Of a stretch of DNA of 64,000 bases, positions 3,279-62,950 are shown piece after piece (positions within the stretch are counted from its first letter, which is position 1; every line of letters begins with the position of its first letter). Source of the stretch: a virus (lineage: Duplodnaviria > Caudoviricetes); IMG/VR virus record IMGVR_UViG_3300015615_000196, positions 32,001-96,000 of that record; one strand, 5' to 3'. The notes under the pieces are model-generated. The model saw only the letters and a program-made list of their open reading frames with translations. It had not been told where the DNA came from and searched no databases. Position numbers and translations under genes: made by a program.

Positions 3279-3734
3279 TTACCACCAGAGTCTCATGTAG
3301 ACTCTGCCAAATGATTTCATTCCTCTTTGGAATTCTTTCCATTCGGTTTTAGTCATCCAGCCACCATCGGTGTCTTTGATGGCCAATTCAAAAGCACGGA
3401 TTGCACGGTCAATGTCTTCGTAGAGTTCCCCTTCGTTGACGATAGTACCTTCAATGATTTCACGATGGCGTTTGAGACGTGGCAGAACAAAGTTTGCAAT
3501 GGTTGCGCTGAGACACCATGTTTCGGTATCGTCAAAACCACGTTCCATTCTTTGTTGTTGGAATCGTGGTTCACGTTCATCGTGTGGATCAGTCAACGAG
3601 AAGTTGATGTTCGGGATGTTGAGATATTTCGGATCAGCTTTTGGCGCAGTTGCCAAAGCAAATCTTGCTTTCACTTTTTCTGATGCAGTGAGTTCTTTTT
3701 TAGGCGTTGCTTTCTTTTTGGCCATAGAGTTCAT
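3279..3734 (-). CDS. Hypothetical phage protein
   Basis: ORF in a packed minus-strand run. Confidence 0.6.
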   Translation of the reverse strand: MNSMAKKKATPKKELTASEKVKARFALATAPKADPKYLNIPNINFSLTDPHDEREPRFQQQRMERGFDDTETWCLSATIANFVLPRLKRHREIIEGTIVNEGELYEDIDRAIRAFELAIKDTDGGWMTKTEWKEFQRGMKSFGRVYMRLWW

Positions 3735-5050: not shown

Positions 5051-6921
5051 CTATAAAATCTTGAGGGTCGTGTCCTTCTTTTATTTTTTGACTCGGTGGG
5101 GGTGTTGTATCCACAGGCCCACGTTCTCCTTTGGGTCTTTCTTCAATTTCCACAATTACCACTTGGTCTTTCTTTTTCAAGATGTTTAAAATCGCGAAAT
5201 GAAGTTGAAGCAATTCAGCACCAAGCGTGGCGAACAATGAAAGAATGATTGCAATGGATGACTTCATATCAAAACTCAACACCCAATTAAACGGCTTCAA
5301 CATTAACATAAAGAACAGGTAGAAGACTACCATGATTAAGAAGTTCCTTACGAAGTATGTTTTCAGCAATGCTTTCATGCAAGAGGTTTGAAACGTTCAG
5401 TTATCGATTCTTTCTCTTCTTCGTTGTCGCTTTGATCCAACATAATGAAATATTCAATCACTACTTCGGCAGCAAAATTTTGAGCATAGTGTTCTCCATC
5501 CTTGCTACGGATGTTAAGCGGTGAAACAGATTCAAGAATCCAGTTGTACTTTTCTAAGAGTACAGCAATGTCATCGTAATTCATTTGCGTTTTTAAGTTT
5601 CGGTTCTTCTTTCTTCGTAAAGCCGAAGAGATTACCAATAAATTTAATGACGTGCCAAATTGCCCAAATTGCAACAACTCCGAATCCGATGGAGATTAGA
5701 GCGATGACACTTACGTGTAAATTTGCAGCTAAGTCTTGTGGGTCTATCATATTACCATTTTCCTTTGGTGACGTTTACAGCAGGATCAGAAATCTTTGCA
5801 TGATCTTTCGGAAAAATTTTCTTGGCGTTTTCACGTTGCATGAAAATTCTTTCGATACCACCAACGAGAAAATCCTTCAACACTTCGTAGTGAACAAAGT
5901 CTGGTTGTGATGGATCGTCAACGGCAATGACATCTTTCGAATAGATCGGATCGTTGTCCTGAAAAATTGTGATGTTGTAGGAGAAGCCAATTTTCTTGAC
6001 TTCGTATTTGAATGCTGTGTTGTACTTGAGACTCAATCTCCCAAGCACGTTATCAACTAACAGTATGTAGGGGTCTTTCTTGTCCATAGTACAAATATCT
6101 TATGGACAAAGATAATGATTTTTTAGAGTATTGCAATTCTGTTGATATAAAACTTTGTGTCTTTTTCAACGTTCAAAACCTCTGTAATCGAATAGATTAC
6201 GTCTAAGGTTTGGGTTTTGACAAGAATCAATCCTGAACGTCTGAACACATTTCTGATCTCAACGTTCGAGCATTTGGTAAGCTGCGTTAAGACAGAATCA
6301 ATGTTTTCATTCAATACTCGCAAATTATAATTTGCTGCTGCTATGGACATAGGTCTGGCCGTTATAATATATTATAAATACCAAACCAGACAGGCTTTGG
6401 TCAAATAGCCTTAACTGACCTTACCAAAGCGGTTTTTAACTACTTTGGTACGTCCATCCGTATCGACAAATACAACCACATCGTCAGTGAGCATTACTCC
6501 GGTCTGAGCCAAATGAAAATATTTCCATTCGATAACTTCGAAAGGAAAACCAGCGTAAATGTCGAGAAGGTCTTTCCTCTCCAACAGTAGTCCTTGAAAT
6601 GATTTCATTTGTTGTATTTCTTTTTTAGTCTTTCCAATTCAGCCAATTCTTTCGACTCGTTTTCCTGTCGTTTAATTTCGGCAGCTTCTTTGTCGAATTG
6701 TGCATACCAAGTATTCACATCGACTTCGTAAGAGGCTTTCACTTCGTAGAACATGATGTTGCTCAACTTTGTCTCTTCGTGGTTGTTGTTCTCCTTGACG
6801 TATTTCTTGAGAAACTGAGTTGCTTCGGCAGAAGTCTCTGCATCAAATTTAATGGTCTTCACACCACATCCAATTGTGTAATCACAACCTTCTGCTTCTT
6901 GTTTTAGTATTGCAACGAATT

Positions 6922-13870: not shown

Positions 13871-14401
13871 TTAACCTACCTTCACCTTGTTGGCTATTTC
13901 TTTGTGGAACGCAGCCAAGAATGCTTCTTTAGCTTCTTTCGGTGACATACAACGCATTGGTGGATATTCTGTGTCTGGCTTTTCAAGCATGACAACTTCC
14001 CACTCCCACTTCAACAGAAGAATATCAACTCTTTCAACTTCCGGTGATTTTGGATAATTGAAGTTGAACTTCTTCGCCAGCACATTCATCAAGTTGTCCT
14101 CGATTGAATTGTACTCTGCCAATTCAAGTTTGATTGGCTTCGGCATATCCAGCAAGTATGCTTCACTTGCATCGTGCATTAAAGCATCGAACTTGTAAGG
14201 CTCTTTTGCAACTTCATAGCATAACAATGAATGCTGTGCTACGGAATAGAATCTTGGGAGGTGTCCACCGAATCGACATTGATTTGACAATGCGTGTGCA
14301 ATGTCCTCAATGAGTAACGTGTCTGGATTAGGCTCAAATACGTTTACGTACTGCCCTGAAATCGTTCTTATAGAACGAACAGCATACAAATTCTCTGTCA
14401 T
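13871..14401 (-). CDS. HD-domain (YfbR/YfdR-like) deoxynucleotide phosphohydrolase
   Basis: DIAHALSNQCRFGGH, YSVAQHS and ALMHDASEAY motifs. Confidence 0.85.
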   Translation of the reverse strand: MTENLYAVRSIRTISGQYVNVFEPNPDTLLIEDIAHALSNQCRFGGHLPRFYSVAQHSLLCYEVAKEPYKFDALMHDASEAYLLDMPKPIKLELAEYNSIEDNLMNVLAKKFNFNYPKSPEVERVDILLLKWEWEVVMLEKPDTEYPPMRCMSPKEAKEAFLAAFHKEIANKVKVG

Positions 14402-15102
14402 TGTAGTAAATTAAAGTGGCGTAACATTTCTGTTACTTTGGTTTCGAGTTCTTCGAGAGTACCATCGTTCACGATAACGTAGTCCCAATTCGTGTAATCG
14501 TTGAGTGCCGTTTCGCTTGGATGTGATGATGTGGAAACTTTTGAAGGACGAATGATTTTAATAACAATGCCCTTCTTTCTTTTGATACCCTCAACTTCGT
14601 TCGGGAATCTGGTGTCTGTGATGATTACTCTATCGTTGTCGGTAAGATCGCCAAGAGTAGCATTCACCCAAATGTTGGGATGAATTACATCCCGTCCACC
14701 TTCTGTACCCAAGAGTTGAAGTATTAATCGTGGAGTAAGAATTTGACTGGTGGGTTCTTTGTGTTCGAGAAAATTCCATCCACGTTCTTTAACAAACTTC
14801 ATTACGTCTTCTGGATTCGAGAAGAATGGTGTAACTCTGCCATCTTCTGTTTCATCCAATAGATTTTCATCTACCAGATACCAACGTCTCCATTCCTCGC
14901 CCAATGGTTTGTTTTTGAATTCGATGTCTTCGAAATCTTCCACTTTGCAGCCAAGGAGTATTGCACTCATTTCTTTTAACTTGCCAGCAAAGCGTCTTGT
15001 TCTCCAATCTCGATTGTTTGTGTTCTTCATGATCAGTGCAGCAACAGTATCCTTACCGTTTTGCAATTGAGCAGCAAGCCCAATGATATGTGGTGTATCC
15101 AT
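14398..15102 (-). CDS. Deoxynucleoside monophosphate kinase (T4 gp1-like)
   Basis: GLAAQLQNGKDT, PRLILQLLGTE, ITDTRFPNE and HPSE motifs. Confidence 0.85.
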   Translation of the reverse strand: MDTPHIIGLAAQLQNGKDTVAALIMKNTNNRDWRTRRFAGKLKEMSAILLGCKVEDFEDIEFKNKPLGEEWRRWYLVDENLLDETEDGRVTPFFSNPEDVMKFVKERGWNFLEHKEPTSQILTPRLILQLLGTEGGRDVIHPNIWVNATLGDLTDNDRVIITDTRFPNEVEGIKRKKGIVIKIIRPSKVSTSSHPSETALNDYTNWDYVIVNDGTLEELETKVTEMLRHFNLLQ

Positions 15103-15749
15103 TATCCGAAAATTTTAACGTTATACAATTTTTCCAAGTTTTGTTTTTTGTCCATTGACTCACTGTCCCAAGTACTTACATGTTCATTCACGTTGTAGGC
15201 TTCAAGTTCACCTGCAACTTGTTTCATCATCTGCTGTAGTTCGGGCACTGAGATCGGTTCTTGATAATTCACAACTGAGAATTCATCACCGTTGACATTT
15301 GTTCTTACGTTGATTTTGCTCTTGAGAATGTCACTCTCTTTCAACGGCTCAGTGTAATGAATCACAGGTTTACCATTGACCATATTGACGCTCTTCGTCC
15401 TGTAAATCACATTGTTATACAAGTAGTACGATTGAGCATCCTTTATTTTGTAGAAGACACCCTTATGGTACGACAAATTGATTTCATCGAGTAGTCCATA
15501 GTTCTCAAGTGTCTTTGCCAGTTCATCCGTTGTCTTTGGCAAACGTTTAGTAACGATGCTGACGAATGATTTTAAATGACCGGGTGGAAGATCAGGGTGA
15601 CTTACGATACGCAAGCTACCTTGAGGACGTGAGTCGTTTGGATAATAAAGTATCCATCGTGCATCCACGTCAAATTCAGAAACGTGACCGAACTTTCGTT
15701 GCCACGTTCCTTGAACTACTGTACCACTGTCATCATCTTCCTCAGCCAT
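15102..15749 (-). CDS. Hypothetical protein
   Basis: ORF coupled to its neighbours. Confidence 0.6.
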   Translation of the reverse strand: MAEEDDDSGTVVQGTWQRKFGHVSEFDVDARWILYYPNDSRPQGSLRIVSHPDLPPGHLKSFVSIVTKRLPKTTDELAKTLENYGLLDEINLSYHKGVFYKIKDAQSYYLYNNVIYRTKSVNMVNGKPVIHYTEPLKESDILKSKINVRTNVNGDEFSVVNYQEPISVPELQQMMKQVAGELEAYNVNEHVSTWDSESMDKKQNLEKLYNVKIFG

Positions 15750-16426
15750 TACTTACGAGTTCTTTTATCGTAAACGTCATCAATGATGCCGTATTCTTTT
15801 GCTTCGTTTGAACGCATCCATTTGTCACGGTTTGCATCCTTACTGATTTGCTCAACAGTCTTGCCAGTAGCATTTGCAAGAATCTCATAGAGGTCTTTGG
15901 TAACTTCTTGAGTTTCCTTCAATGCAATCTCCATATCAGAGACCACACCACGCATACCACTTGACGGTTGGTGAATCATTACCCGTGAATGTTTCAATGC
16001 TCCACGCATTCCCTTCTCACCACAAGCGAGTAACACTGCTGCCATTGATGCAGCCATACCAGTACACAAAGTACCAACTTTTGGTTGGATGTAGTTCATC
16101 GTATCGTAGATACCGAACCCATCGTATACTGAACCACCCGGAGAGTTGATGTACATCAAGATGTCTGACTTTGAATCAGTTGATTCAAGATACAACAATT
16201 GTGCTGTGATCAAGTTGGATACCAAGTCATCGATCCCCATGCCGAGAAAAATAATTCGGTCGGCAATTAATCTGGTGAAAACGTCAATAGGTCTGAAATT
16301 GTTTGGACGTTCCTCAATGATGTAGGGAGTCATATTCGAAACGTAGTTGTTGTAGGAGTCAACGGCATTACCGCTCATTCCCAAATGGTGAACCGCATAT
16401 TTGCGGAAATCATTTTCTTTGTTCAT
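15749..16426 (-). CDS. clpP: ATP-dependent Clp protease proteolytic subunit
   Basis: YINSPGGSV, GMAASMAA and RVMIHQP motifs; Bacteroidota-like N-terminus. Confidence 0.95.
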   Translation of the reverse strand: MNKENDFRKYAVHHLGMSGNAVDSYNNYVSNMTPYIIEERPNNFRPIDVFTRLIADRIIFLGMGIDDLVSNLITAQLLYLESTDSKSDILMYINSPGGSVYDGFGIYDTMNYIQPKVGTLCTGMAASMAAVLLACGEKGMRGALKHSRVMIHQPSSGMRGVVSDMEIALKETQEVTKDLYEILANATGKTVEQISKDANRDKWMRSNEAKEYGIIDDVYDKRTRK

Positions 16427-17430: not shown

Positions 17431-17841
17431 ATGAAAAAACTATGTTCCAAATGTAAAACAAAAAAAGAACTCAAGCAATTTTCTCGTAATCGTTTTAATT
17501 CAGATGGTTATCATCATTACTGTAAATCCTGTAAAAATAAGGATGCTAAACATCGATATTCAACAAATGAAGAATATCGTTTAAAACGTCAAAGAAAACA
17601 ATTAAATTATCTATACGCACTATCTGAAACTGATTACGATCAACTACTAACAAATCAAAATCATTCATGTGCAATTTGTCTACTTCCATTTGAATCAAAA
17701 AGAAAGACCTTCGTTGATCATTGTCACAAATCAGGCAAAGTCAGAGGACTACTTTGCCCGAAATGTAACAATTTATTGGGTCAATGCCACGATGATACTT
17801 TGATTTTAAATTCAGCAATCGAATATCTCACCAAAATTTAG
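17431..17841 (+). CDS. Endonuclease VII-family HNH endonuclease (probable homing endonuclease)
   Basis: CAIC...VDHCH..GKVRGLLCPKCNNLLG; opposite strand to its neighbours and lower GC. Confidence 0.85.
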   Translation: MKKLCSKCKTKKELKQFSRNRFNSDGYHHYCKSCKNKDAKHRYSTNEEYRLKRQRKQLNYLYALSETDYDQLLTNQNHSCAICLLPFESKRKTFVDHCHKSGKVRGLLCPKCNNLLGQCHDDTLILNSAIEYLTKI

Positions 17842-18443
17842 TGTACTGCAACATTACTTACAATGTGTTTTCCACGTCTGTCAATTTGTTTCCATTTGAT
17901 TTTGAAGGACGTAGACTCGATACCACCGAACATTGAAGCATTTGCATGAATCTCACAAAGACCTGTGATCAATAAACTTACTGCCAACGGACTTTTGCAG
18001 AATTCATCGAGTTCCTCATTCTTAATGGTATGGATCACCATATCATTCTTGATCAACTCGGCAACAACATTGTCATTCTTAAATAACTTTTTCCACACTT
18101 CATACGATGCATTCGCATGATCAGGAAAATGTTGCTTACCGTTTTCGTCAAGACAACGGACATAAGGCTTTCCACAATCGTGATACACTTGGTAGCGCAT
18201 CATCGTATCGTCATCCAGTACGTTACTGATAACTTCGTAACCATACTGATCAAGCCAATCAGGAAGTTTCCATTCGTATTTCAATGGTGATCCTGTACGT
18301 AAATGAGCAATCAAGTCACGATAGTACTCGTTGACCAACTTACCGTGATCGAGAACAGACATTCCTTTTGTCTGCTCACAAGCAATCATATCATCAATGA
18401 GTTCCTTGAAACCCAAGTTCTCAGGTATTATTTTAGTTTCCAT
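17838..18443 (-). CDS. HD-domain protein
   Basis: HG...YHDCGKP...HFPDHA motifs. Confidence 0.65.
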   Translation of the reverse strand: METKIIPENLGFKELIDDMIACEQTKGMSVLDHGKLVNEYYRDLIAHLRTGSPLKYEWKLPDWLDQYGYEVISNVLDDDTMMRYQVYHDCGKPYVRCLDENGKQHFPDHANASYEVWKKLFKNDNVVAELIKNDMVIHTIKNEELDEFCKSPLAVSLLITGLCEIHANASMFGGIESTSFKIKWKQIDRRGKHIVSNVAVH

Positions 18444-19069
18444 ACTTGTCCTTTTTCAGGGTCATAATGCCAAACATAAAACTCGGCTTTCTTTTCAGGA
18501 TAGAACTTCCCGCTTTCGATTACTGCCATGCATTCACCTTGGCAGAAAGTTTCTTTTGTGAGTCCAAGCCATCCGTGTGCGGTCATCGTATTGAACTGAC
18601 CGATCTTACTGGTAAGTGGTTGGCGTACTTCCCAACCACCAGAGAAATATTTGTCGATGGTTCTGGTTGTCCACTCGGCAATTGATTTCTCGTGTACGTT
18701 TCTCGCATACGCAGCTTCATCTTCGATATGCTTCCAGTATGAGGCTTTGCGTTCCTCATTATGAACATATGTGAGATCATAGCGAATGCGTTTTTTGATT
18801 CGTTCGAGATCACCTTCTTCATCCCAAATGATACTGTCGATGTCCATTGTATGAATGTCAACTTTGTATCCTTGTGTTGAAGTGACCAGCACCGAATCGT
18901 GAGGATAGAATCGTTTCTCTTCTCCCAATTCTAAATACTGGTAGGGGCCATCCCAATAACCTTCCTTCGGTTCTGCAAACCAAGGTGCACCCCCACCGGG
19001 AAGGCGAACGTAGCCTTCACCAGTAGGGTCTGCTTCCTGCAACATCTTTATGAAGTCTTTTGTTTTCAT
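18428..19069 (-). CDS. Hypothetical protein
   Basis: ORF overlapping its neighbours in an operon. Confidence 0.6.
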   Translation of the reverse strand: MKTKDFIKMLQEADPTGEGYVRLPGGGAPWFAEPKEGYWDGPYQYLELGEEKRFYPHDSVLVTSTQGYKVDIHTMDIDSIIWDEEGDLERIKKRIRYDLTYVHNEERKASYWKHIEDEAAYARNVHEKSIAEWTTRTIDKYFSGGWEVRQPLTSKIGQFNTMTAHGWLGLTKETFCQGECMAVIESGKFYPEKKAEFYVWHYDPEKGQVWKLK

Positions 19070-19521
19070 GATATTGCTTGGTTCTTCTCTAATCTTATTT
19101 TGTAGAAGTCACCTTTCTCCTGCTTGTAGTCAGCATACGCAGCTTGCATTTTTGCCAATGCTTCTTTGTATGCCTTTCTCTTTTCTTGGATGGCGATTTC
19201 CTTGTCAGACTTGATGACACGCACTCGTAAGTCGGACTTCAAAATTGTCTTCATCAAGAAGTGTAAGAACTTGTTGATCCCTGCCAACGTAGGACGGTTG
19301 TAAATCATCCAGATGTAGTTCGCAAGTTTCTTTCTTTTCTTCTTGCTTGCGTTGATCAAAGCTGCATTGAATTCTGCTTCTGTGATCTTGTCAAAGTTAT
19401 CTCGGTCTTTGAACTGGTAATCGTTTTTCTTAACGAAGTCCTCGATCTTACCGAAAGCTGATTTAATGAACTGATAGTTAATAGCAGTTGCATGTACGTG
19501 ATTTGAGATTGTGTTTTCCAT
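19066..19521 (-). CDS. Basic hypothetical protein downstream of the TAG-containing mini-ORF
   Basis: ORF with an AT-rich translation-initiation region. Confidence 0.65.
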   Translation of the reverse strand: MENTISNHVHATAINYQFIKSAFGKIEDFVKKNDYQFKDRDNFDKITEAEFNAALINASKKKRKKLANYIWMIYNRPTLAGINKFLHFLMKTILKSDLRVRVIKSDKEIAIQEKRKAYKEALAKMQAAYADYKQEKGDFYKIRLEKNQAIS

Positions 19522-19602: not shown

Positions 19603-19638
19603 TTATGGAGGTCGTTCGATGATCTATAACTTTTTCAT
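19603..19638 (-). promoter_or_regulatory. Leader mini-ORF MKKL*IIERPP* with in-frame TAG
   Basis: ATG AAA AAG TTA TAG ATC ATC GAA CGA CCT CCA TAA, followed by alternative hairpins at 19563-19597. Confidence 0.6.
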
Positions 19639-19654: not shown

Positions 19655-20026
19655 TTATTTAAATGATTTTAATGCCAGTGGTAGGTTCGAAAGCATCTTT
19701 CGAATTTCAGGTGTGGCGTATACGGCAAGAGCAGTTGCTTGATCCTGAATATCAGGTTCACGGAAAAGTGTGACGTAAGGCGTTGTCTCCCTTAATCGAT
19801 TGTACCAATCGATCAAAGACGCTTCGTCTTTAACTGCAAGTGTGATAATTGAATTGGATTCTTCTTTCCATTGCTTCGCAATAGCAGGATGCTCGTGTAT
19901 GAAGTCAGCAATGGCGTGGGCGGTCTGGACGACCTGATAACCCGGTGAAATATCCTGTCTGGTAAGTGTTACCAGCTTGGATTCGGTAAATCTCGAAATC
20001 TACCCGATGTTGTGATCTTTTTTCAT
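19655..20026 (-). CDS. Pth2-like peptidyl-tRNA hydrolase with in-frame TAG at codon 9 (not in ORF track)
   Basis: MKKDHNIG*ISRFTESKLVTLTRQDISPGYQVVQTAHAIADF...NSIITL...FREPDIQDQATALAV...LSNLPLAL; TAG at 20000-20002. Confidence 0.8.
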
Positions 20027-20104: not shown

Positions 20105-20160
20105 TCAATAAAAAAAGGGTTTTTTTCAAAACCCTCTTTTCAGTCGAATTTAAACGATTT

Positions 20161-20928
20161 TTAGTTCTCGTCTTCGTCAGAAAGTAATGATTCCGAATTT
20201 ACAGATGCCAAACTTGCACTCATACCTCTGTATGAAGCTGCTGCTCTTGACACTTTACTGTAAAGGACTTGATTACCAAGTGATGTGTTTTGGAACTGGA
20301 AGGTATTACCTTGAGAGATATTTAAACCCTTGCTCACAGTAACTGCGTCCTCAGTTGAACATAAGAACAAAAACTGCCAGTTGTTTTTCTTTTGATACGC
20401 AATCAAATCGGCAATGTCTGTTTGTTTGAACTCTGTGCTGGAATTTTCTCCACCATCTGTTACGATGATACACAAAACCTTTGTAGGTCTCTGTGATTCC
20501 TTCACATTCTGCATAGTTGCTTTGTATCCAGTGACACTCTTTCCAATTGCATCATACAATGCAGTCATGCCTCTCGGTACAAAGGTAGCAGTAGTCAACT
20601 CAGGTACATCTTGAATGTCAATGCTCTTACCCTCATACAACGGTTCGAATCTGTCATCAAATAACGTTCCTGATAAAGTTGCTTTATCTTTCAGTTTCTT
20701 CTGCTCACTAATGAAATTATTGTATCCACCGATTGCGTCATTTACTACAGGTCGCATTGAACCAGAACGGTCGAGAATTGCGATGATGTGAGTGGATTCT
20801 TTTTTACGTGCTGTGGTTTTTTTAGCCTTCACAGTGGGCTTTTTTGCCTTAGCTTTTACCGCTTTTTTTGCTGCGGTTTTTTTAGCTTTGGCCGTAGTCT
20901 TCTTTGGTCGTGCCATAAAAGTTGTCAT
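20161..20928 (-). CDS. vWA-domain protein with Lys/Ala-rich N-terminal tail
   Basis: ILDRSGSM MIDAS, TALYDAIG, IVTDGGENSS; histone-H1-like KKTTAKAKK repeats. Confidence 0.85.
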   Translation of the reverse strand: MTTFMARPKKTTAKAKKTAAKKAVKAKAKKPTVKAKKTTARKKESTHIIAILDRSGSMRPVVNDAIGGYNNFISEQKKLKDKATLSGTLFDDRFEPLYEGKSIDIQDVPELTTATFVPRGMTALYDAIGKSVTGYKATMQNVKESQRPTKVLCIIVTDGGENSSTEFKQTDIADLIAYQKKNNWQFLFLCSTEDAVTVSKGLNISQGNTFQFQNTSLGNQVLYSKVSRAAASYRGMSASLASVNSESLLSDEDEN

Positions 20929-21472: not shown

Positions 21473-21817
21473 ATGGAGAAGATTTCTAAAGTCATCAGAT
21501 CACACGCGAATGGATCAATGTTCGAGTACGTGTTCTTTTGTCCGGGATGTGGTTGTGCACACGGGATTCGTACTACAAGTTGGCCGATGCCAACCGGATT
21601 AACAGAAGAGTACATTGAACTCTTCCAGAACAAATGGACTTTTAATGGTGATGTTGAGAAGCCTACTATACACCCTTCCATTCATGTATGGCATAAAGAT
21701 AAGAAAGGCAATAAAACTACAACTTGCCATTCGTTCGTTACGGAAGGTAAAATCCAATACCTCAATGATTGTATCCACGATTTAAAGGGACAGACAATCG
21801 ACTTGCCGGATTTTTGA
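21473..21817 (+). CDS. Zn-binding DUF6527-like protein
   Basis: FCPGCGCAH, PTIHPSI and CHSFVTEGKIQYLNDCIH. Confidence 0.6.
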   Translation: MEKISKVIRSHANGSMFEYVFFCPGCGCAHGIRTTSWPMPTGLTEEYIELFQNKWTFNGDVEKPTIHPSIHVWHKDKKGNKTTTCHSFVTEGKIQYLNDCIHDLKGQTIDLPDF

Positions 21818-21893
21818 GCACAAGGTGGGATTCGAACCCACGACATATGCCTGTTTTGCAGACAGGAGCCTTGAACCACTTGGCGACATGTGC
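21817..21893 (-). tRNA. tRNA-Cys(GCA)
   Basis: Cloverleaf, CCUGU-CUGCAAA-ACAGG. Confidence 0.9.
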
Positions 21894-21898
21894 GTGTG

Positions 21899-21980
21899 TA
21901 CCCCCGACAGGATTCGAACCTGTACGCCTTTCGGCACTACGTTCTAAGCGTAGCATGACTACCATTTCCAACACGGGGGC
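21899..21980 (-). tRNA. tRNA-Leu(TAG)
   Basis: Type II cloverleaf, loop CUUAGAA. Confidence 0.92.
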
Positions 21981-22516
21981 ATTTTAATCTCTTTCTAATA
22001 AGTATTTATGGGTATGCAGGGAGTAAACGAAATAACCAACATTTTCAAGGACGACCAAGAATACATTCCGGTCATTGCTGATCACGGAACGGTTGATGAT
22101 GCCATTTTCGGTGCTGCACTTCGTAAGGGTCATCTACCCAAATCCAATGTTACTACCGAATCTTTCAACATTGTCAAGAAGAATATCTACAAGATACACA
22201 AGCATGACGTGCCAAAGTTACTCAAGCTGCTCGAAGGTCTCAACAAAAGGCATCAAAATCAATTTCAGCCTCACATTGACGACATTTCTTACCACTTCAA
22301 CTCAATCAAAAAGAAGAACTAATCCTTATCTACATCGTTGAGTACGTACTTCACAAGAAGCACAACTGCGATTGTACTGAAAGGAATAAACAGTATGATC
22401 AAATCGATCAAGAAAAGAACTGGATTAATGAATCCATGATTCTTCAACTTGTAGTAAGTTGTCAACGGGAGGATTATTCTCCACCAGTTGAATTGCTTGA
22501 TCTTATCCATCATATG

Positions 22517-22598
22517 TACCCTTGGAGGGACTCGAACCCCCACGCCTCACGGCACTGGCTTCTTAGACCAGCGTGGCTACCAATTACACCACAAGGGC
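22517..22598 (-). tRNA. tRNA-Leu(AAG)
   Basis: Type II cloverleaf, CUGGU-CUAAGAA-GCCAG. Confidence 0.88.
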
Positions 22599-22627
22599 AT
22601 GTACATTTAAATACTGAGAAGTATTTG

Positions 22628-22698
22628 AGCCTTGACTGAGAATTGAACTCAGATTCTTTGTTTACGAAACAAAAGTTTTGCCGTTAAACTATCAAGGC
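22628..22698 (-). tRNA. tRNA-Thr(CGT)
   Basis: Loop UUCGUAA. Confidence 0.85.
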
Positions 22699-22705
22699 AA
22701 TTTTT

Positions 22706-22780
22706 TGGAGCCTCCAATGAGAATCGAACTCATGTTTCTCCCTTACCAAGGGAATGTTCTACCATTGCAACTATGGAGGC
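22706..22780 (-). tRNA. tRNA-Thr(GGT)
   Basis: Loop UUGGUAA; encoded CCA. Confidence 0.92.
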
Positions 22781-22786
22781 TTATAC

Positions 22787-22872
22787 AAAGTATTGTTCTG
22801 ACATTGAACTACGCCCTTACGTCATGATCGTAATTTGAGGATCGGTGGGACTCCAACCCACAACTATACTTC
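22787..22872 (-). ncRNA. Circularly permuted tRNA-like (Y RNA/YrlA-like) RNA 2
   Basis: T-arm GUGGG-UUGGAGU-CCCAC lies 5' of D-arm GUUC-AAUGUCA-GAAC; closed by AAGUAU/AUACUU. Confidence 0.6.
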
Positions 22873-22874
22873 TG

Positions 22875-22947
22875 AGACCGTAACGGGACTCAAACCCGTA
22901 GCTTTTCGTTTTAGGGACGACCACTCTATCAGTTGAGTTATACGGCC
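22875..22947 (-). tRNA. Amber suppressor tRNA(CUA)
   Basis: GGCCGUA/UACGGUC acceptor, U73; GUCGU-CCCUAAA-ACGAA; C33 instead of U33. Confidence 0.75.
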
Positions 22948-22956
22948 AAATATTAG

Positions 22957-23161
22957 AACAACAAGCACTCTGACATTGAGTTACATCCGTGCAGTGGCCA
23001 CTGTACATGTCAAACTTTGGATTCTTCCCTGATGACTTGACGTTGTAAGGGGAATTCTCATATTGCTACAAGAATTACAACATCTTTATAACGCCTTTGC
23101 TCTGGTATCGAACTTTCAGCTTGGTGGATGATGGGAATCCAACCCACAACTTCTTGTTGTT
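22957..23161 (-). ncRNA. Circularly permuted tRNA-like (Y RNA/YrlA-like) RNA 1
   Basis: AACAACAAG/CUUGUUGUU closing stem; T-arm GUGGG-UUGGAUU-CCCAU; CAUCC/GGAUG acceptor-like stem with ~140-nt insert; D-arm ACUC-AAUGUCA-GAGU. Confidence 0.6.
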
Positions 23162-23164
23162 TTG

Positions 23165-23237
23165 TGCGGAAGGTGAGAATCGAACTCACATTACTGGTTT
23201 TTCAAACCAGCACCTTGACCACGTTGGTAACAACCGC
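23165..23237 (-). tRNA. tRNA-Phe(GAA)
   Basis: Loop UUGAAAA. Confidence 0.85.
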
Positions 23238-23243
23238 ATATCG

Positions 23244-23315
23244 TGGAGATAATGGGAATCGAACCCACTTGTGATGTCGTCTGACACCAAACTCGTCCAT
23301 TGAGTAACTATCCCC
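23244..23315 (-). tRNA. tRNA-like RNA with Ala acceptor identity and non-canonical anticodon arm
   Basis: GGGGAUA/UAUCUCC (G3:U70), A73, normal T-arm; 7-bp stem capped by AGAC. Confidence 0.55.
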
Positions 23316-23818
23316 TACTAAATAATTTCTTCAAAAATTTCCATTTGGTATCGACACCCGTTGTCGGATATGTCTCTACATCAAAAACCTCTTTGTAACC
23401 TGACCAGCAATCGTCTGGCATTTTTGTCCAGACACAGAACATTCCAATTGCCGGAGTGTCTTTTCCGAGTTTCAACAATCGCCACGTTCCACCATATATT
23501 TTGCGATACCATTTCTTATCCAAGAAATTGCTACCCCAATACATGTTCTCTTGTTTCCGTAGCAGGTCTAACGATTCTGTTACCATTTGTCGTAGTCGGT
23601 TAAGTTGATTTTTTTACCGTCTGCTCTTTCTACTTCTACAACAGTTCCAAGTCCTGTTGGTGTAAACATGAAGGTGTACCCACCACCGATTGTAGCAGGA
23701 GGAAGTTTCTTCAACTTCTTATTCCATGCTTCGAGTTTTTTGATTTCATCTTCATCCAGTTCAAACTTGTAACTGGTTAAGATTTTTCCTGTATTTGCTT
23801 TCATACAAATAATTTATG

Positions 23819-23907
23819 CTCTTCCTATAGGATTCGAACCTATGCGGGGTGATTGCCACCCACCTGATTAACAGTCAGGACTTTTCGGCCACTAAAGCAA
23901 AGGAAGA
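23819..23907 (-). tRNA. tRNA-Asn(GTT) with long variable arm
   Basis: Loop CUGUUAA; GGGUG-gcaau-CACCC extra arm. Confidence 0.8.
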
Positions 23908-26638: not shown

Positions 26639-26642
26639 ATTA

Positions 26643-26727
26643 TGCATCGTATACGATTCGAACGTATGATTCTTTAAAGGAATGTCCGCTACACGCAGAC
26701 CGTCTTAAACCACTCAACCAACGATAC
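26643..26727 (-). tRNA. Leu-type tRNA body with aberrant anticodon loop (CGUGUAG)
   Basis: A73, long variable arm; GUCUG-CGUGUAG-CGGAC. Confidence 0.55.
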
Positions 26728-26733
26728 ATGTTG

Positions 26734-62650: not shown

Positions 62651-62877
62651 ATCTTTTTTCTTTCTTCCATCAACTGTGCCATGAAATCTGCAATGTCTCG
62701 AAGACAAGTTTTTTCAAAGACAGTATGTTCTGCCGGATAAAAAGAATATTGTCGAAATGAACCAAACCAACGTACAGTGCCGAGAACTACACCGTTCTCT
62801 TTATTCTGTACCACAAACACTTTTGTTTTCCTATCAGGAAAATCTTGTTCGATGAATTCAATCCATTTAGCCATATG

Positions 62878-62950
62878 TAGTCCGGGTGGGACTCGAACCC
62901 ACGATAGCTGCTTTGTAGGAGCAGTGCTTTTGCCACTAAGCTACCAGACT
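62878..62950 (-). tRNA. tRNA-Val(TAC), C33
   Basis: Loop CCUACAA. Confidence 0.85.

What the first reader, a model, noticed from the sequence alone, without database searches (positions are those of the whole stretch)
22875..22947. Amber-suppressor tRNA(CUA) inside the attenuated array, possibly a signalling relay
Seen: a cloverleaf with anticodon CUA, C33 and a 27:43 mismatch (features expected to weaken decoding), U73 and a GGC start; the charged amino acid is unclear. Inference: tRNA depletion induces array 1, the weak suppressor appears, and it unlocks the TAG-gated Pth2 operon ~3 kb downstream, giving a two-step translational cascade without genome-wide recoding.
Basis: partly seen in the sequence, partly recalled or inferred. 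Interest (0 to 1): 0.78.

Follow-up and report, generated by a model that had tools for sequence, protein, structure and literature searches.

The report
Phage amber-suppressor tRNA gating Pth2 operon
A giant phage that otherwise uses the normal genetic code carries a genuine, evolutionarily maintained UAG-reading tRNA, and its most likely job is to read deliberate UAG stops at the start of a nearby peptidyl-tRNA-hydrolase gene and inside a small leader, a gene-specific switch that dozens of other phages share.

Summary
Window 22875-22947 (-) is a tRNA (Rfam 52.6 bits) with anticodon CUA, C33, a G27.A43 mismatch and U73. ARAGORN misses it and instead makes a false Ser call. The host is a complete 362.6-kb jumbo phage with at least 62 tRNAs and no genome-wide TAG recoding.

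A 371.5-kb sister phage keeps an ortholog in the same array slot. It is 76% identical, as conserved as the neighbouring sense tRNAs, with compensatory changes at 7:66, 10:25 and 19:56. So the gene is under selection.

The "weak suppressor" premise is not supported. G27.A43 is shared by both phages and is reported to raise UAG read-through. C33 is specific to this phage and is reported to be tolerated.

The proposed target is real. The Pth2-like gene 2.85 kb downstream starts ATG + 7 codons + TAG ATT. 73 of 77 distinct related loci have the same ATG/1-7 codons/TAG start, and four also have a TAG inside the conserved core. 17% of nearby tRNAs are co-oriented tRNA(CUA).

A second TAG-containing leader ending Arg-Pro-Pro-stop is conserved past the TAG.

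Not tested: the attenuator step, the charged amino acid, and expression. A second CUA tRNA exists elsewhere in the genome.

The parts
22875..22947 (-). tRNA(CUA): an amber-suppressor-type tRNA with C33, G27.A43, an A19:U56 elbow pair and U73. No CCA is encoded.
   Evidence: Rfam RF00005 52.6 bits. Sequence read. Custom cloverleaf scan. Ortholog with compensatory changes.
22912..22914 (-). Anticodon CUA (TAG on the plus strand).
   Evidence: Read. Loop CCCTAAA confirmed.
19655..20026 (-). Pth2-like ORF (123 codons) that is open only if TAG is read. It starts ATG + 7 sense codons + TAG ATT, and there is no ATG/GTG/TTG between the TAG and the conserved domain.
   Evidence: Pfam PTH2 28.9 bits against a cut-off of 23, residues 17-115. 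The profile hits archaeal Pth2 structures 2zv3, 1rzw and 1q7s.
20000..20002 (-). The TAG gate codon (codon 9) of the Pth2-like ORF, followed by ATT.
   Evidence: The same architecture is present in 73 of 77 distinct related loci.
19603..19638 (-). Second amber-containing mini-ORF (M K K L TAG I I E R P P stop). It lies between Pth2 and the next gene (19066-19521).
   Evidence: The sister phage has M K H L TAG I H P R P P stop. It is the only such leader in the genome. 21 TAG-type, 1 TAA-type and 0 TGA-type leaders ending PP-stop occur in related loci.
20116..20135 (-). Hairpin followed by a T run on the minus strand. It lies between the vWA-like gene (20161-20928) and the Pth2 ORF and looks like a terminator, so the Pth2 unit probably has its own start of transcription.
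   Evidence: consensus scan only.
21816..23907 (-). Conserved array segment Asn - Phe - (tRNA-like) - CUA - Thr(ggt) - Thr(cgt) - Leu(aag) - Leu(tag) - Cys, in which the suppressor occupies a fixed slot.
   Evidence: One search compared with the sister phage order Asn, Phe, Ser-like, CUA, Thr(ggt), Leu(aag), Leu(tag), Cys, then Pth2.

Best explanation
Window 22875-22947 (-) encodes a functional phage tRNA that decodes UAG. The phage uses the standard code, and TAG ends about 6% of its confident genes. The suppressor therefore acts on a few dedicated sites rather than recoding the genome. Its conserved targets lie in the operon 2.85 kb downstream. One is the TAG at codon 9 of the Pth2-like peptidyl-tRNA hydrolase gene. 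The other is the TAG in a 12-codon (stop included) leader ending Arg-Pro-Pro-stop in front of the next gene. Without suppression, ribosomes starting at the ATG release a 2-8-residue peptide at the TAG. With charged tRNA(CUA) they read through and make Pth2, or reach the Pro-Pro-stop site in the leader. Output of the operon is thus tied to suppressor activity in competition with host RF1.

Shown: the tRNA gene, its conservation, the gates and their conservation, the physical linkage of tRNA(CUA) genes to gated Pth2 genes, and the absence of recoding.

Inferred: that the RNA is made, charged and reads these TAGs; that this copy, rather than or alongside the second CUA tRNA, does so; and the biological purpose. 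A plausible purpose is to couple peptidyl-tRNA recycling and ribosome rescue to the moment when stop-codon suppression is active.
For: The tRNA is real:
- Rfam 52.6 bits.
- The tertiary pairs 8:14, 15:48, 18:55 and 19:56 are intact. 19:56 is A:U here and G:C in the ortholog (read).

The tRNA is under selection:
- The sister phage G001 (371.5 kb) has an ortholog in the same array slot, 55/72 identical.
- That is within the 71-84% range of seven neighbouring sense tRNA pairs.
- Compensatory changes occur at 7:66 and 10:25.

There is no recoding:
- ORFs of 300 aa or more rise only from 95 to 99 when TAG is read as sense. A Lak phage control gives a 1332-aa ORF with 29 TAGs.
- TAG ends 16 of 263 confident ORFs.
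- No convincing internal TAG was found in long genes.
- The genome encodes no release factor, no GlnRS/GluRS and no PylS.

The gate is conserved:
- 73 of 77 distinct Pth2 loci have ATG + 1-7 codons + TAG. 65 of the 73 have no canonical start between the gate and the conserved motif.
- The base after TAG is A in 59, G in 13, C in 1 and T in none.
- TAA or TGA occupies that position in only 4 loci, although TAA is 82% of stops in this genome's long ORFs.
- Four loci also carry a TAG inside the conserved core.
- The same start occurs in cultured Tenacibaculum phage pT24, with an annotated tRNA-Sup 2.6 kb upstream. It also occurs in huge phages LR756500-504. Mycobacteriophage Bxz1 has ATG TAG GTG, with a tRNA(CUA) 300 bp downstream.

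tRNA(CUA) genes are physically linked to the gate:
- 29 of 171 tRNAs in these loci are CUA, all co-oriented and lying 4.7 kb upstream to 2.5 kb downstream.
- In 13 loci the only tRNAs are CUA.

The leader is conserved past its TAG:
- R-P-P-stop is conserved after the TAG in both phages.
- Leaders ending PP-stop number 21 with TAG, 1 with TAA and 0 with TGA.
Against: There are no expression, processing, aminoacylation or suppression data. ARAGORN rejects the gene, and it combines three non-consensus features: C33, G27.A43 and U56. A second, canonical tRNA(CUA) at genome 299221-299292 could be the working suppressor. The near-invariant ATT/ATA after the TAG (55 of 73) would also fit a non-AUG start codon after a mini-uORF. 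Many gated loci show no tRNA(CUA) within the fetched flanks. I could not show that the gate's stop codon changes together with the suppressor's anticodon: the only TAA-gated locus, L075, is a 1.9-kb contig with no tRNA. The amino acid inserted is unknown.
Confidence: 0.6

Rival explanations
1. This is a redundant or decaying copy. The array tRNA(CUA) is drifting (C33, U56, 27:43 mismatch) and contributes little. The canonical CUA tRNA at genome 299221-299292 reads the gates.
For: C33 is derived relative to the U33 ortholog. ARAGORN rejects the gene. Three other tRNAs in this genome also lack U33, which could mean relaxed constraint on duplicates. A canonical second copy exists.
Against: Divergence from the ortholog (76% identity) is no greater than for neighbouring sense tRNAs (71-84%). 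The changes in stems and at the 19:56 elbow pair are compensatory (read). The Rfam score is mid-range for this array. G27.A43 is ancestral, not new. Published data indicate that C33 and G27.A43 do not disable decoding (10.64898/2026.02.20.707122; PMC13092985). The array copy, not the distant one, is the copy physically linked to Pth2, as in most related loci.
Confidence: 0.15
2. The gate is not read through. ATG-x-TAG is a mini-uORF ('minigene'), and Pth2 is translated by termination-reinitiation at the adjacent ATT/ATA/GTG. The tRNA(CUA) merely sits among translation genes.
For: ATT or ATA follows the TAG in 55 of 73 loci. Bxz1 has ATG TAG GTG, with GTG as the annotated start. Leaders are very short: 2 codons in 38 of 73. 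From memory, 2-3-codon minigenes such as lambda bar cause peptidyl-tRNA drop-off, which is the substrate of Pth.
Against: The stop is TAG in 73 of 77 loci, in genomes where TAA dominates. 18 of the 73 follow TAG with GTA, GTT, AAA, ACT, AGT or ACA, none of which is a known start codon. Four loci have a second TAG inside the conserved Pth2 core, where reinitiation cannot give a whole enzyme. The tight, co-oriented linkage to tRNA(CUA) would be left unexplained.
Confidence: 0.08
3. This is a general-purpose suppressor. It might rescue phage genes from nonsense mutations, perturb host termination, resist host anticodon nucleases through its altered loop, or be an early step towards code 15. The Pth2 gate would then be a side effect rather than its purpose.
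For: Standard-code relatives of recoded phages are TAG-poor and AT-rich (Borges et al., 10.1101/2021.08.26.457843). This genome has TAG as 4-6% of stops. Phage tRNAs with altered anticodon loops evade anticodon nucleases (PMC10264068). Each of the two sister phages carries two unrelated CUA tRNAs.
Against: These ideas do not predict a TAG fixed at one site of one gene family across more than 70 loci, nor its adjacency to the tRNA. No other gene in this genome shows a credible in-frame TAG.
Confidence: 0.12

Closest known systems
Suppressor tRNAs of stop-codon-recoded phages (code 15 / code 4; crAss-like, Lak and others; Borges et al. 10.1101/2021.08.26.457843; PMC9523058)
   Same: A phage-encoded tRNA(CUA), in a phage whose tested genes lack Shine-Dalgarno-like upstream sequence. 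The in-frame stop codon acts as a timing or regulatory barrier that the phage's own tRNA lifts.
   Different: In those phages 26-71% of genes carry in-frame stops and coding density collapses under the standard code. Here the genome is standard code, TAG is still a terminator, and only two sites in one operon are gated. No phage release factor is encoded.
E. coli tRNAThr2-derived amber suppressor with the natural G27-A43 mismatch, and 4-bp anticodon-stem tRNATrp (Komine & Inokuchi 1990 and others, as summarised in PMC13092985)
   Same: The top pair of the anticodon stem is unpaired (G27.A43) in a CUA tRNA. That feature is reported to raise UAG read-through.
   Different: Those are laboratory-made or UGA-reading near-cognate tRNAs. 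Here the feature is natural, phage-borne and conserved in an ortholog. It is not significantly enriched among 40 phage CUA tRNAs (7/40 against 21/234, p 0.15). A 31:39 mismatch is enriched instead (18/40 against 9/234, p 3.7e-11).
Gene-specific programmed stop-codon read-through (for example the Q-beta A1 protein; from memory)
   Same: A single stop codon in a phage gene is read as sense at some frequency to give a longer product.
   Different: Q-beta uses a host near-cognate tRNA at a C-terminal UGA. Here the stop is at codons 2-9, so the whole enzyme depends on it, and the phage supplies a cognate suppressor next to the gene.
Lambda bar minigenes and peptidyl-tRNA drop-off (from memory)
   Same: An ATG plus 1-3 codons plus a stop, functionally connected with peptidyl-tRNA hydrolase.
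   Different: The bar minigenes are toxic to Pth-deficient hosts and are not fused in frame to a Pth gene. Here the mini-ORF is in frame with Pth2 and always ends in TAG.
tRNAPyl (ARAGORN's label for any CUA tRNA)
   Same: Anticodon CUA.
   Different: The variable loop is 5 nt, the D loop 8 nt, the T loop is normal and the anticodon stem is 4-5 bp. The genome has no PylS. It is not a member.

Membership tests
tRNA (Rfam RF00005) | Covariance-model score at or above the gathering score over the full model | tested here: met
   52.6 bits against 29, model positions 1-71.
tRNA (Rfam RF00005) | Tertiary pairs that build the L-shape (U8:A14, R15:Y48, G18:U55, 19:56) | tested here: met
   T8:A14, A15:T48, G18/T55 and A19:T56, read. 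19:56 is G:C in the ortholog, so this is a compensatory change.
Amber suppressor tRNA | CUA at positions 34-36 of a 7-nt anticodon loop, with a purine at position 37 | tested here: met
   Loop CCCUAAA. Position 33 is C rather than U.
Amber suppressor tRNA | Conserved in-frame TAG targets in the same genome | tested here: met
   The Pth2 gate and the RPP-stop leader are both conserved in the sister phage. The gate is present in 73 of 77 loci.
Amber suppressor tRNA | The RNA is aminoacylated and suppresses UAG in vivo | not testable with these tools
   Needs tRNA-seq or an acid gel, an amber reporter, or mass spectrometry.
Stop-codon-recoded phage (code 15) | A large share of genes carry in-frame TAG, and coding density rises when TAG is read as sense | tested here: not met
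   ORFs of 300 aa or more go from 95 to 99. The candidate TAG-joined ORFs are adjacent genes or shadow frames. The Lak control behaves as expected.
Stop-codon-recoded phage (code 15) | TAG no longer used as a terminator | tested here: not met
   TAG ends 16 of 263 confident ORFs.
tRNAPyl | 3-nt variable loop, 6-bp anticodon stem, small D loop, and PylS in the genome | tested here: not met
   Geometry read. No PylS match.
Bacterial initiator tRNA (considered because TAG sits next to a start) | 1:72 mismatch and three G:C pairs at 29-31:39-41 | tested here: not met
   G1-C72 is paired. The stem pairs are U28-A42, C29-G41, G30-C40 and U31-A39.
Pth2 (PF01981), for the gated target | Pfam score above the gathering cut-off over the full domain | tested here: met
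   28.9 bits against 23, profile positions 2-112 of 115. The profile hits archaeal and human Pth2 structures at E 1.6e-6 to 6e-3. Enzymatic activity was not tested.

The most novel reading that the evidence does not exclude
The tRNA(CUA) is the trans-acting input of a dedicated 'suppression-sensing' regulon. That regulon comprises a TAG-gated Pth2 and TAG-containing Pro-Pro-stop arrest leaders. It is carried as a compact module by many unrelated phages that keep the standard code, including cultured pT24 and Bxz1-type phages. The module makes peptidyl-tRNA recycling and ribosome-rescue functions only when stop-codon suppression is active. It would be a natural translational AND-gate, distinct from genome-wide recoding.
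Probability: 0.5. Interest if true: 0.78.

Novelty: new variant of a known kind. Interest (0 to 1): 0.64.

Why it matters
Phage suppressor tRNAs are currently explained mainly by genome-wide stop-codon recoding. Here a suppressor sits in a standard-code jumbo phage and is paired with one conserved, gene-specific UAG gate on a peptidyl-tRNA hydrolase plus a UAG-containing arrest leader. The same pairing recurs in more than 70 distinct phage loci, including culturable phages, so it can be tested directly.

If confirmed, it would do three things:
- Explain why many non-recoded phages carry tRNA(CUA).
- Correct annotations, since Pth2 genes are truncated or missed (for example pT24 BPT24_235).
- Give a natural example of a cognate-suppressor-controlled switch, and possibly a stepping stone towards code 15.

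It also shows that features read as defects (a 4-bp anticodon stem, 31:39 mismatches) are common in natural suppressors.

Tried and rejected
- **Exact-pattern search for the anticodon arm in IMG/VR.** The four hits were all chance matches in non-tRNA sequence. Looser patterns built from the own/sister consensus found only the sister phage.
- **blastn of the array segment against INPHARED.** No match.
- **Amino-acid identity from paralogy.** The best match to any of the phage's other tRNAs is 49/73 (Phe, Gln), which is uninformative. U73 is shared with the phage's Thr, Gly, Cys and one Gln tRNA. The TAG positions align with variable residues. Identity is left open. A Thr-cluster origin (adjacent Thr tRNAs, U73, G27.A43 as in E. 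coli tRNAThr2) is only a lead.
- **Genome-wide search for more TAG gates.** The crude codon-usage score gave no enrichment over TAA/TGA controls (17/79 against 42/313 and 62/234). The extra candidates looked like shadow ORFs.
- **Co-variation of gate stop and suppressor anticodon.** Lak-B7 has ATG-x-x-TAA-ATA upstream of Pth2 and a tRNA(UUA) 600 bp away. However, that stretch lies inside the preceding ORF in another frame and an ATG follows four codons later, so I rejected it as evidence. L075 (TAA gate) is too short to test.
- **Pattern search for CUA tRNAs elsewhere in five gate-bearing contigs.** It gave one Arg(UCU) false positive and two non-canonical tRNA-like stretches with no Rfam hit, so it was inconclusive.
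- **Sigma-70 promoter scan.** At the level of shuffled controls, so uninformative.
- **Initiator-tRNA(CUA) reading of TAG as a start.** Rejected on structure (see the membership test).
- **Theta/HDV-like ribozyme next to the tRNA.** No Rfam hit.

Full report
**1. The observation**

The acceptor starts GGC (G1-C72, G2.U71). G27.A43 is unpaired at the top of the anticodon stem. The loop is CCCUAAA, with C33 and anticodon CUA at window 22912-22914. The discriminator is U73 (sequence; custom scan).

Rfam's tRNA model gives 52.6 bits against a gathering score of 29, E 2.9e-9, full length. That is mid-range among the 26 tRNA hits of this array segment.

ARAGORN does not call it, even on the isolated sequence. 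It instead reports an 88-nt 'Ser(tga)' at 22837-22924, which borrows this tRNA's T arm as its anticodon arm. This is an artefact. Single-sequence folding is not informative (z -1.84).

**2. The genome**

The window is bases 32001-96000 of a complete 362,603-bp virus record with direct terminal repeats and 40.5% G+C. It is a jumbo phage.

- ARAGORN finds 61 tRNAs, grouped by amino acid. One of them is a second, canonical tRNA(CUA) at genome 299221-299292 with U33 and G73.
- The upstream sequence of the Pth2-like ORF is A-rich and shows no Shine-Dalgarno-like motif. Its closest Pth2 relatives include the 460-735-kb 'huge phages' LR756500-504, and more distantly Tenacibaculum phage pT24 and Lak phages. 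This suggests a Bacteroidota-type host, which is inference.
- The genome is not TAG-recoded. Reading TAG as sense raises ORFs of 300 aa or more only from 95 to 99. The same test on a Lak locus opens a 1332-aa ORF containing 29 TAGs.
- TAG is rare but real as a terminator: 6 of 137 long ORFs and 16 of 263 confident ORFs of 150 aa or more.
- The 14 candidate TAG-joined ORFs are adjacent genes or antisense shadow frames.
- The phage encodes no release factor, no GlnRS/GluRS-type synthetase and no PylS. The suppressor would therefore be charged by a host enzyme and would compete with host RF1.

**3. The tRNA is under selection**

A 371.5-kb sister phage (IMGVR_UViG_3300032157_000001, the same as Ga0315912_10000035) has Pth2 61% identical. 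It carries a tRNA(CUA) in the same slot of the same array: Asn, Phe, a tRNA-like element, CUA, Thr(ggt), Leu(aag), Leu(tag), Cys, then Pth2.

- The two CUA tRNAs are 55/72 identical. Seven neighbouring orthologous sense tRNAs are 71-84% identical. The suppressor is thus as conserved as working tRNAs.
- Stem differences are compensatory: 7:66 is A-U against G-C, and 10:25 is A-U against G-C.
- The elbow pair is A19:U56 here and G19:C56 in the sister phage (read).
- Both share G27.A43 and U73.
- The sister copy has U33, so C33 is a change specific to this phage.
- Each phage also has a second, unrelated CUA tRNA.

**4. The 'weakening' features**

Published work points the other way.

- A review of 4-bp anticodon stems states that the natural G27-A43 mismatch of E. 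coli tRNAThr2, combined with a CUA anticodon, gives more UAG read-through than the repaired 5-bp stem. It cites Komine & Inokuchi 1990 (PMC13092985).
- A natural C33 in yeast tRNALeu(GAG) 'does not substantially impair' function (bioRxiv 10.64898/2026.02.20.707122).
- Position 33 is also not U in three other tRNAs of this phage, and in one other phage CUA tRNA, in L091.

Among 40 distinct phage CUA tRNAs collected here, 27:43 is unpaired in 7, against 21 of 234 other tRNAs (p 0.15). 31:39 is unpaired in 18, against 9 of 234 (p 3.7e-11). Loosened anticodon stems therefore look like a property of natural amber suppressors, not a defect. Altered loops may also serve to evade anticodon nucleases (PMC10264068), but I did not test that.

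**5. The target**

The ORF lies 2.85 kb downstream on the same strand, at 19655-20026. It reads ATG, seven sense codons, TAG (20000-20002), ATT, and then a Pth2 domain.

- The Pfam PTH2 score is 28.9 bits against a cut-off of 23, covering residues 17-115.
- The profile hits Pth2 structures 2zv3, 1rzw and 1q7s.
- No ATG, GTG or TTG lies between the TAG and the domain.
- It is the only ATG...TAG ATT followed by a coding ORF in the genome.

The same start is found in IMG/VR relatives and huge phages. In 77 distinct loci from metagenome contigs, IMG/VR viral contigs and GenBank phage records, 73 have ATG + 1-7 codons + TAG. Within those 73:

- 65 have no canonical start before the conserved motif.
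- The next codon is ATT in 53, GTA in 7, GTT in 6 and ATA in 2. CTG, AAA, ACT, AGT and ACA occur once each.
- The base after TAG is A in 59, G in 13, C in 1 and never T.
- Four loci (L028, L098, L099, L100) have a second TAG inside the conserved core.

Cultured Tenacibaculum phage pT24 has ATG AAA TAG ATA. Its annotated CDS starts at a later ATG, and an annotated tRNA-Sup lies 2.6 kb upstream. Mycobacteriophage Bxz1 has ATG TAG GTG, with a CUA 'tRNA-like product' 300 bp downstream.

**6. A second target**

Between Pth2 and the next gene lies a 12-codon (stop included) leader, M K K L TAG I I E R P P stop (19603-19638). The sister phage has M K H L TAG I H P R P P stop at the same place.

Conservation of Arg-Pro-Pro-stop after the TAG means translation past the TAG is under selection. 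This is the only such leader in the genome. In the related loci, leaders of this form ending PP-stop number 21 with TAG, 1 with TAA and 0 with TGA.

**7. Read-through or reinitiation**

The near-constant ATT/ATA could be a non-AUG start used after a mini-uORF. I rank that low, for four reasons:

- The stop is TAG in 73 of 77 loci, although TAA is 82% of stops here.
- A quarter of the gates are followed by codons that are not starts.
- Internal core TAGs exist.
- The gate is physically tied to tRNA(CUA).

The purine after TAG fits the classical context rule for efficient amber suppression (Bossi; Miller & Albertini, 1983; from memory).

**8. Linkage**

In the 78 metagenome loci, 29 of 171 ARAGORN tRNAs are CUA. 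All are co-oriented with Pth2 and lie 4.7 kb upstream to 2.5 kb downstream. In 13 loci the only tRNAs are CUA. Among loci with at least 2 kb on both sides, 12 of 23 have one.

A more distant Pth2-like family in smaller phages has a normal ATG. It still has a tRNA(CUA) 0.6-1 kb upstream and a tmRNA alongside.

**9. What is not shown**

- Expression, processing, CCA addition, charging and the inserted amino acid are all unknown.
- Similarity to the phage's own tRNAs is too low to assign identity.
- I did not test the claimed leader-peptide attenuator in front of the array.
- A terminator-like hairpin at 20116-20135 suggests the Pth2 unit is transcribed separately.
- I could not test whether the gate's stop codon co-varies with the suppressor's anticodon.
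- The purpose of the gate is inference. It could couple Pth2 to the time when suppression creates read-through and non-stop ribosomes. It could also be a feedback loop through the drop-off-prone minigene.

**10. Comparison and novelty**

The closest known system is regulatory stop-codon recoding in phages with their own suppressor tRNAs (Borges et al.). That paper does not mention peptidyl-tRNA hydrolase, and my literature searches found no description of an amber-gated Pth2 or of this module.

This case fails the defining test of a recoded genome. It works by the same principle, but at one operon. I therefore file it as a new variant of a known kind.

An earlier follow-up in this scan had already reported the gated Pth2 on this same genome. 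I found the gate independently before reading that note, and I re-tested its main claims.

Noticed in passing
window 22837-22924: ARAGORN's 'tRNA-Ser(tga)' here is a false call. It is built from the T arm of the CUA tRNA plus the T-arm-like hairpin of the next element.
   Followed up: yes
window 22781-22874 and 22948-23163: The suppressor is flanked on both sides by tRNA-like elements. Each has a T-arm-like hairpin (loop UUGGAGU / UUGGAUU), a D-arm-like hairpin (loop AAUGUCA) and a closing terminal stem. The upstream one carries a long insert and folds better than shuffles (z -2.4). The sister phage has a 97-nt Rfam tRNA hit right after its CUA tRNA (L032:3453-3549).
   Followed up: partly
window 23241-23315: A tRNA-like RNA with a good acceptor stem (G3.U70-type) and T arm but an aberrant anticodon arm. 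Rfam matches it only weakly, to the tmRNA tRNA-like domain (19.9 bits).
   Followed up: no
40 phage tRNA(CUA) genes from loci L006-L111 and the own genome: The 31:39 pair at the bottom of the anticodon stem is unpaired in 18 of 40 amber-suppressor tRNAs, against 9 of 234 other tRNAs from the same loci (Fisher p 3.7e-11).
   Followed up: partly
window 26642-26728, window 62877-62950, genome 191735-191807: Three further tRNAs lack U33: Thr(tgt) with G33, Val(tac) with C33 and Gln(ttg) with G33. Each has a normal sister copy in the genome.
   Followed up: no
L025:6992-7582; L029 (pT24) 5962-6915; window 17838-18443: The HD-domain protein (phrog_14850) that follows Pth2 also starts ATG AAT ACT TAG ATT in huge phage LR745206. 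It is fused to Pth2 in pT24. In this window it is a separate gene with a plain ATG.
   Followed up: partly
L008:9170-9600 and L011:9370-9600; L014 and L016 Pth2 ends: In smaller phages with a tRNA(CUA)-Pth2-tmRNA module, the small gene right after the tRNA ends in TAG. The TAG is followed by a conserved in-frame CCG TAT GAC GCA ATA GGx CCA CCT. Two Pth2 genes end ...GSRG TAG SAEQI..., conserved past the TAG. Both suggest C-terminal read-through extensions.
   Followed up: no
L112 (mycobacteriophage Bxz1) 2971-2979 and 3657-3729: Bxz1 gp154 (Pth) is preceded by ATG TAG directly in front of its annotated GTG start. The 'tRNA-OTHER' 300 bp downstream is a tRNA(CUA).
   Followed up: partly
L068:389-513: A 125-nt Rfam tRNA hit with a roughly 50-nt insert in the anticodon region. 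It may be an interrupted tRNA containing UCCUAAA.
   Followed up: no
window 13871-16426: The same-strand genes downstream of the Pth2 unit include a ClpP-family protease (15749-16426, E 1.7e-71) and a dNMP kinase (14398-15102).
   Followed up: no
L028, L098, L099 (Whopperphage-like loci): Tandem pairs of different tRNA(CUA) genes lie 1.2-2.5 kb downstream of Pth2. In each pair one tRNA has loop CUCUAGA or UUCUAGC (G37), which is unusual for a suppressor reading UAG.
   Followed up: no
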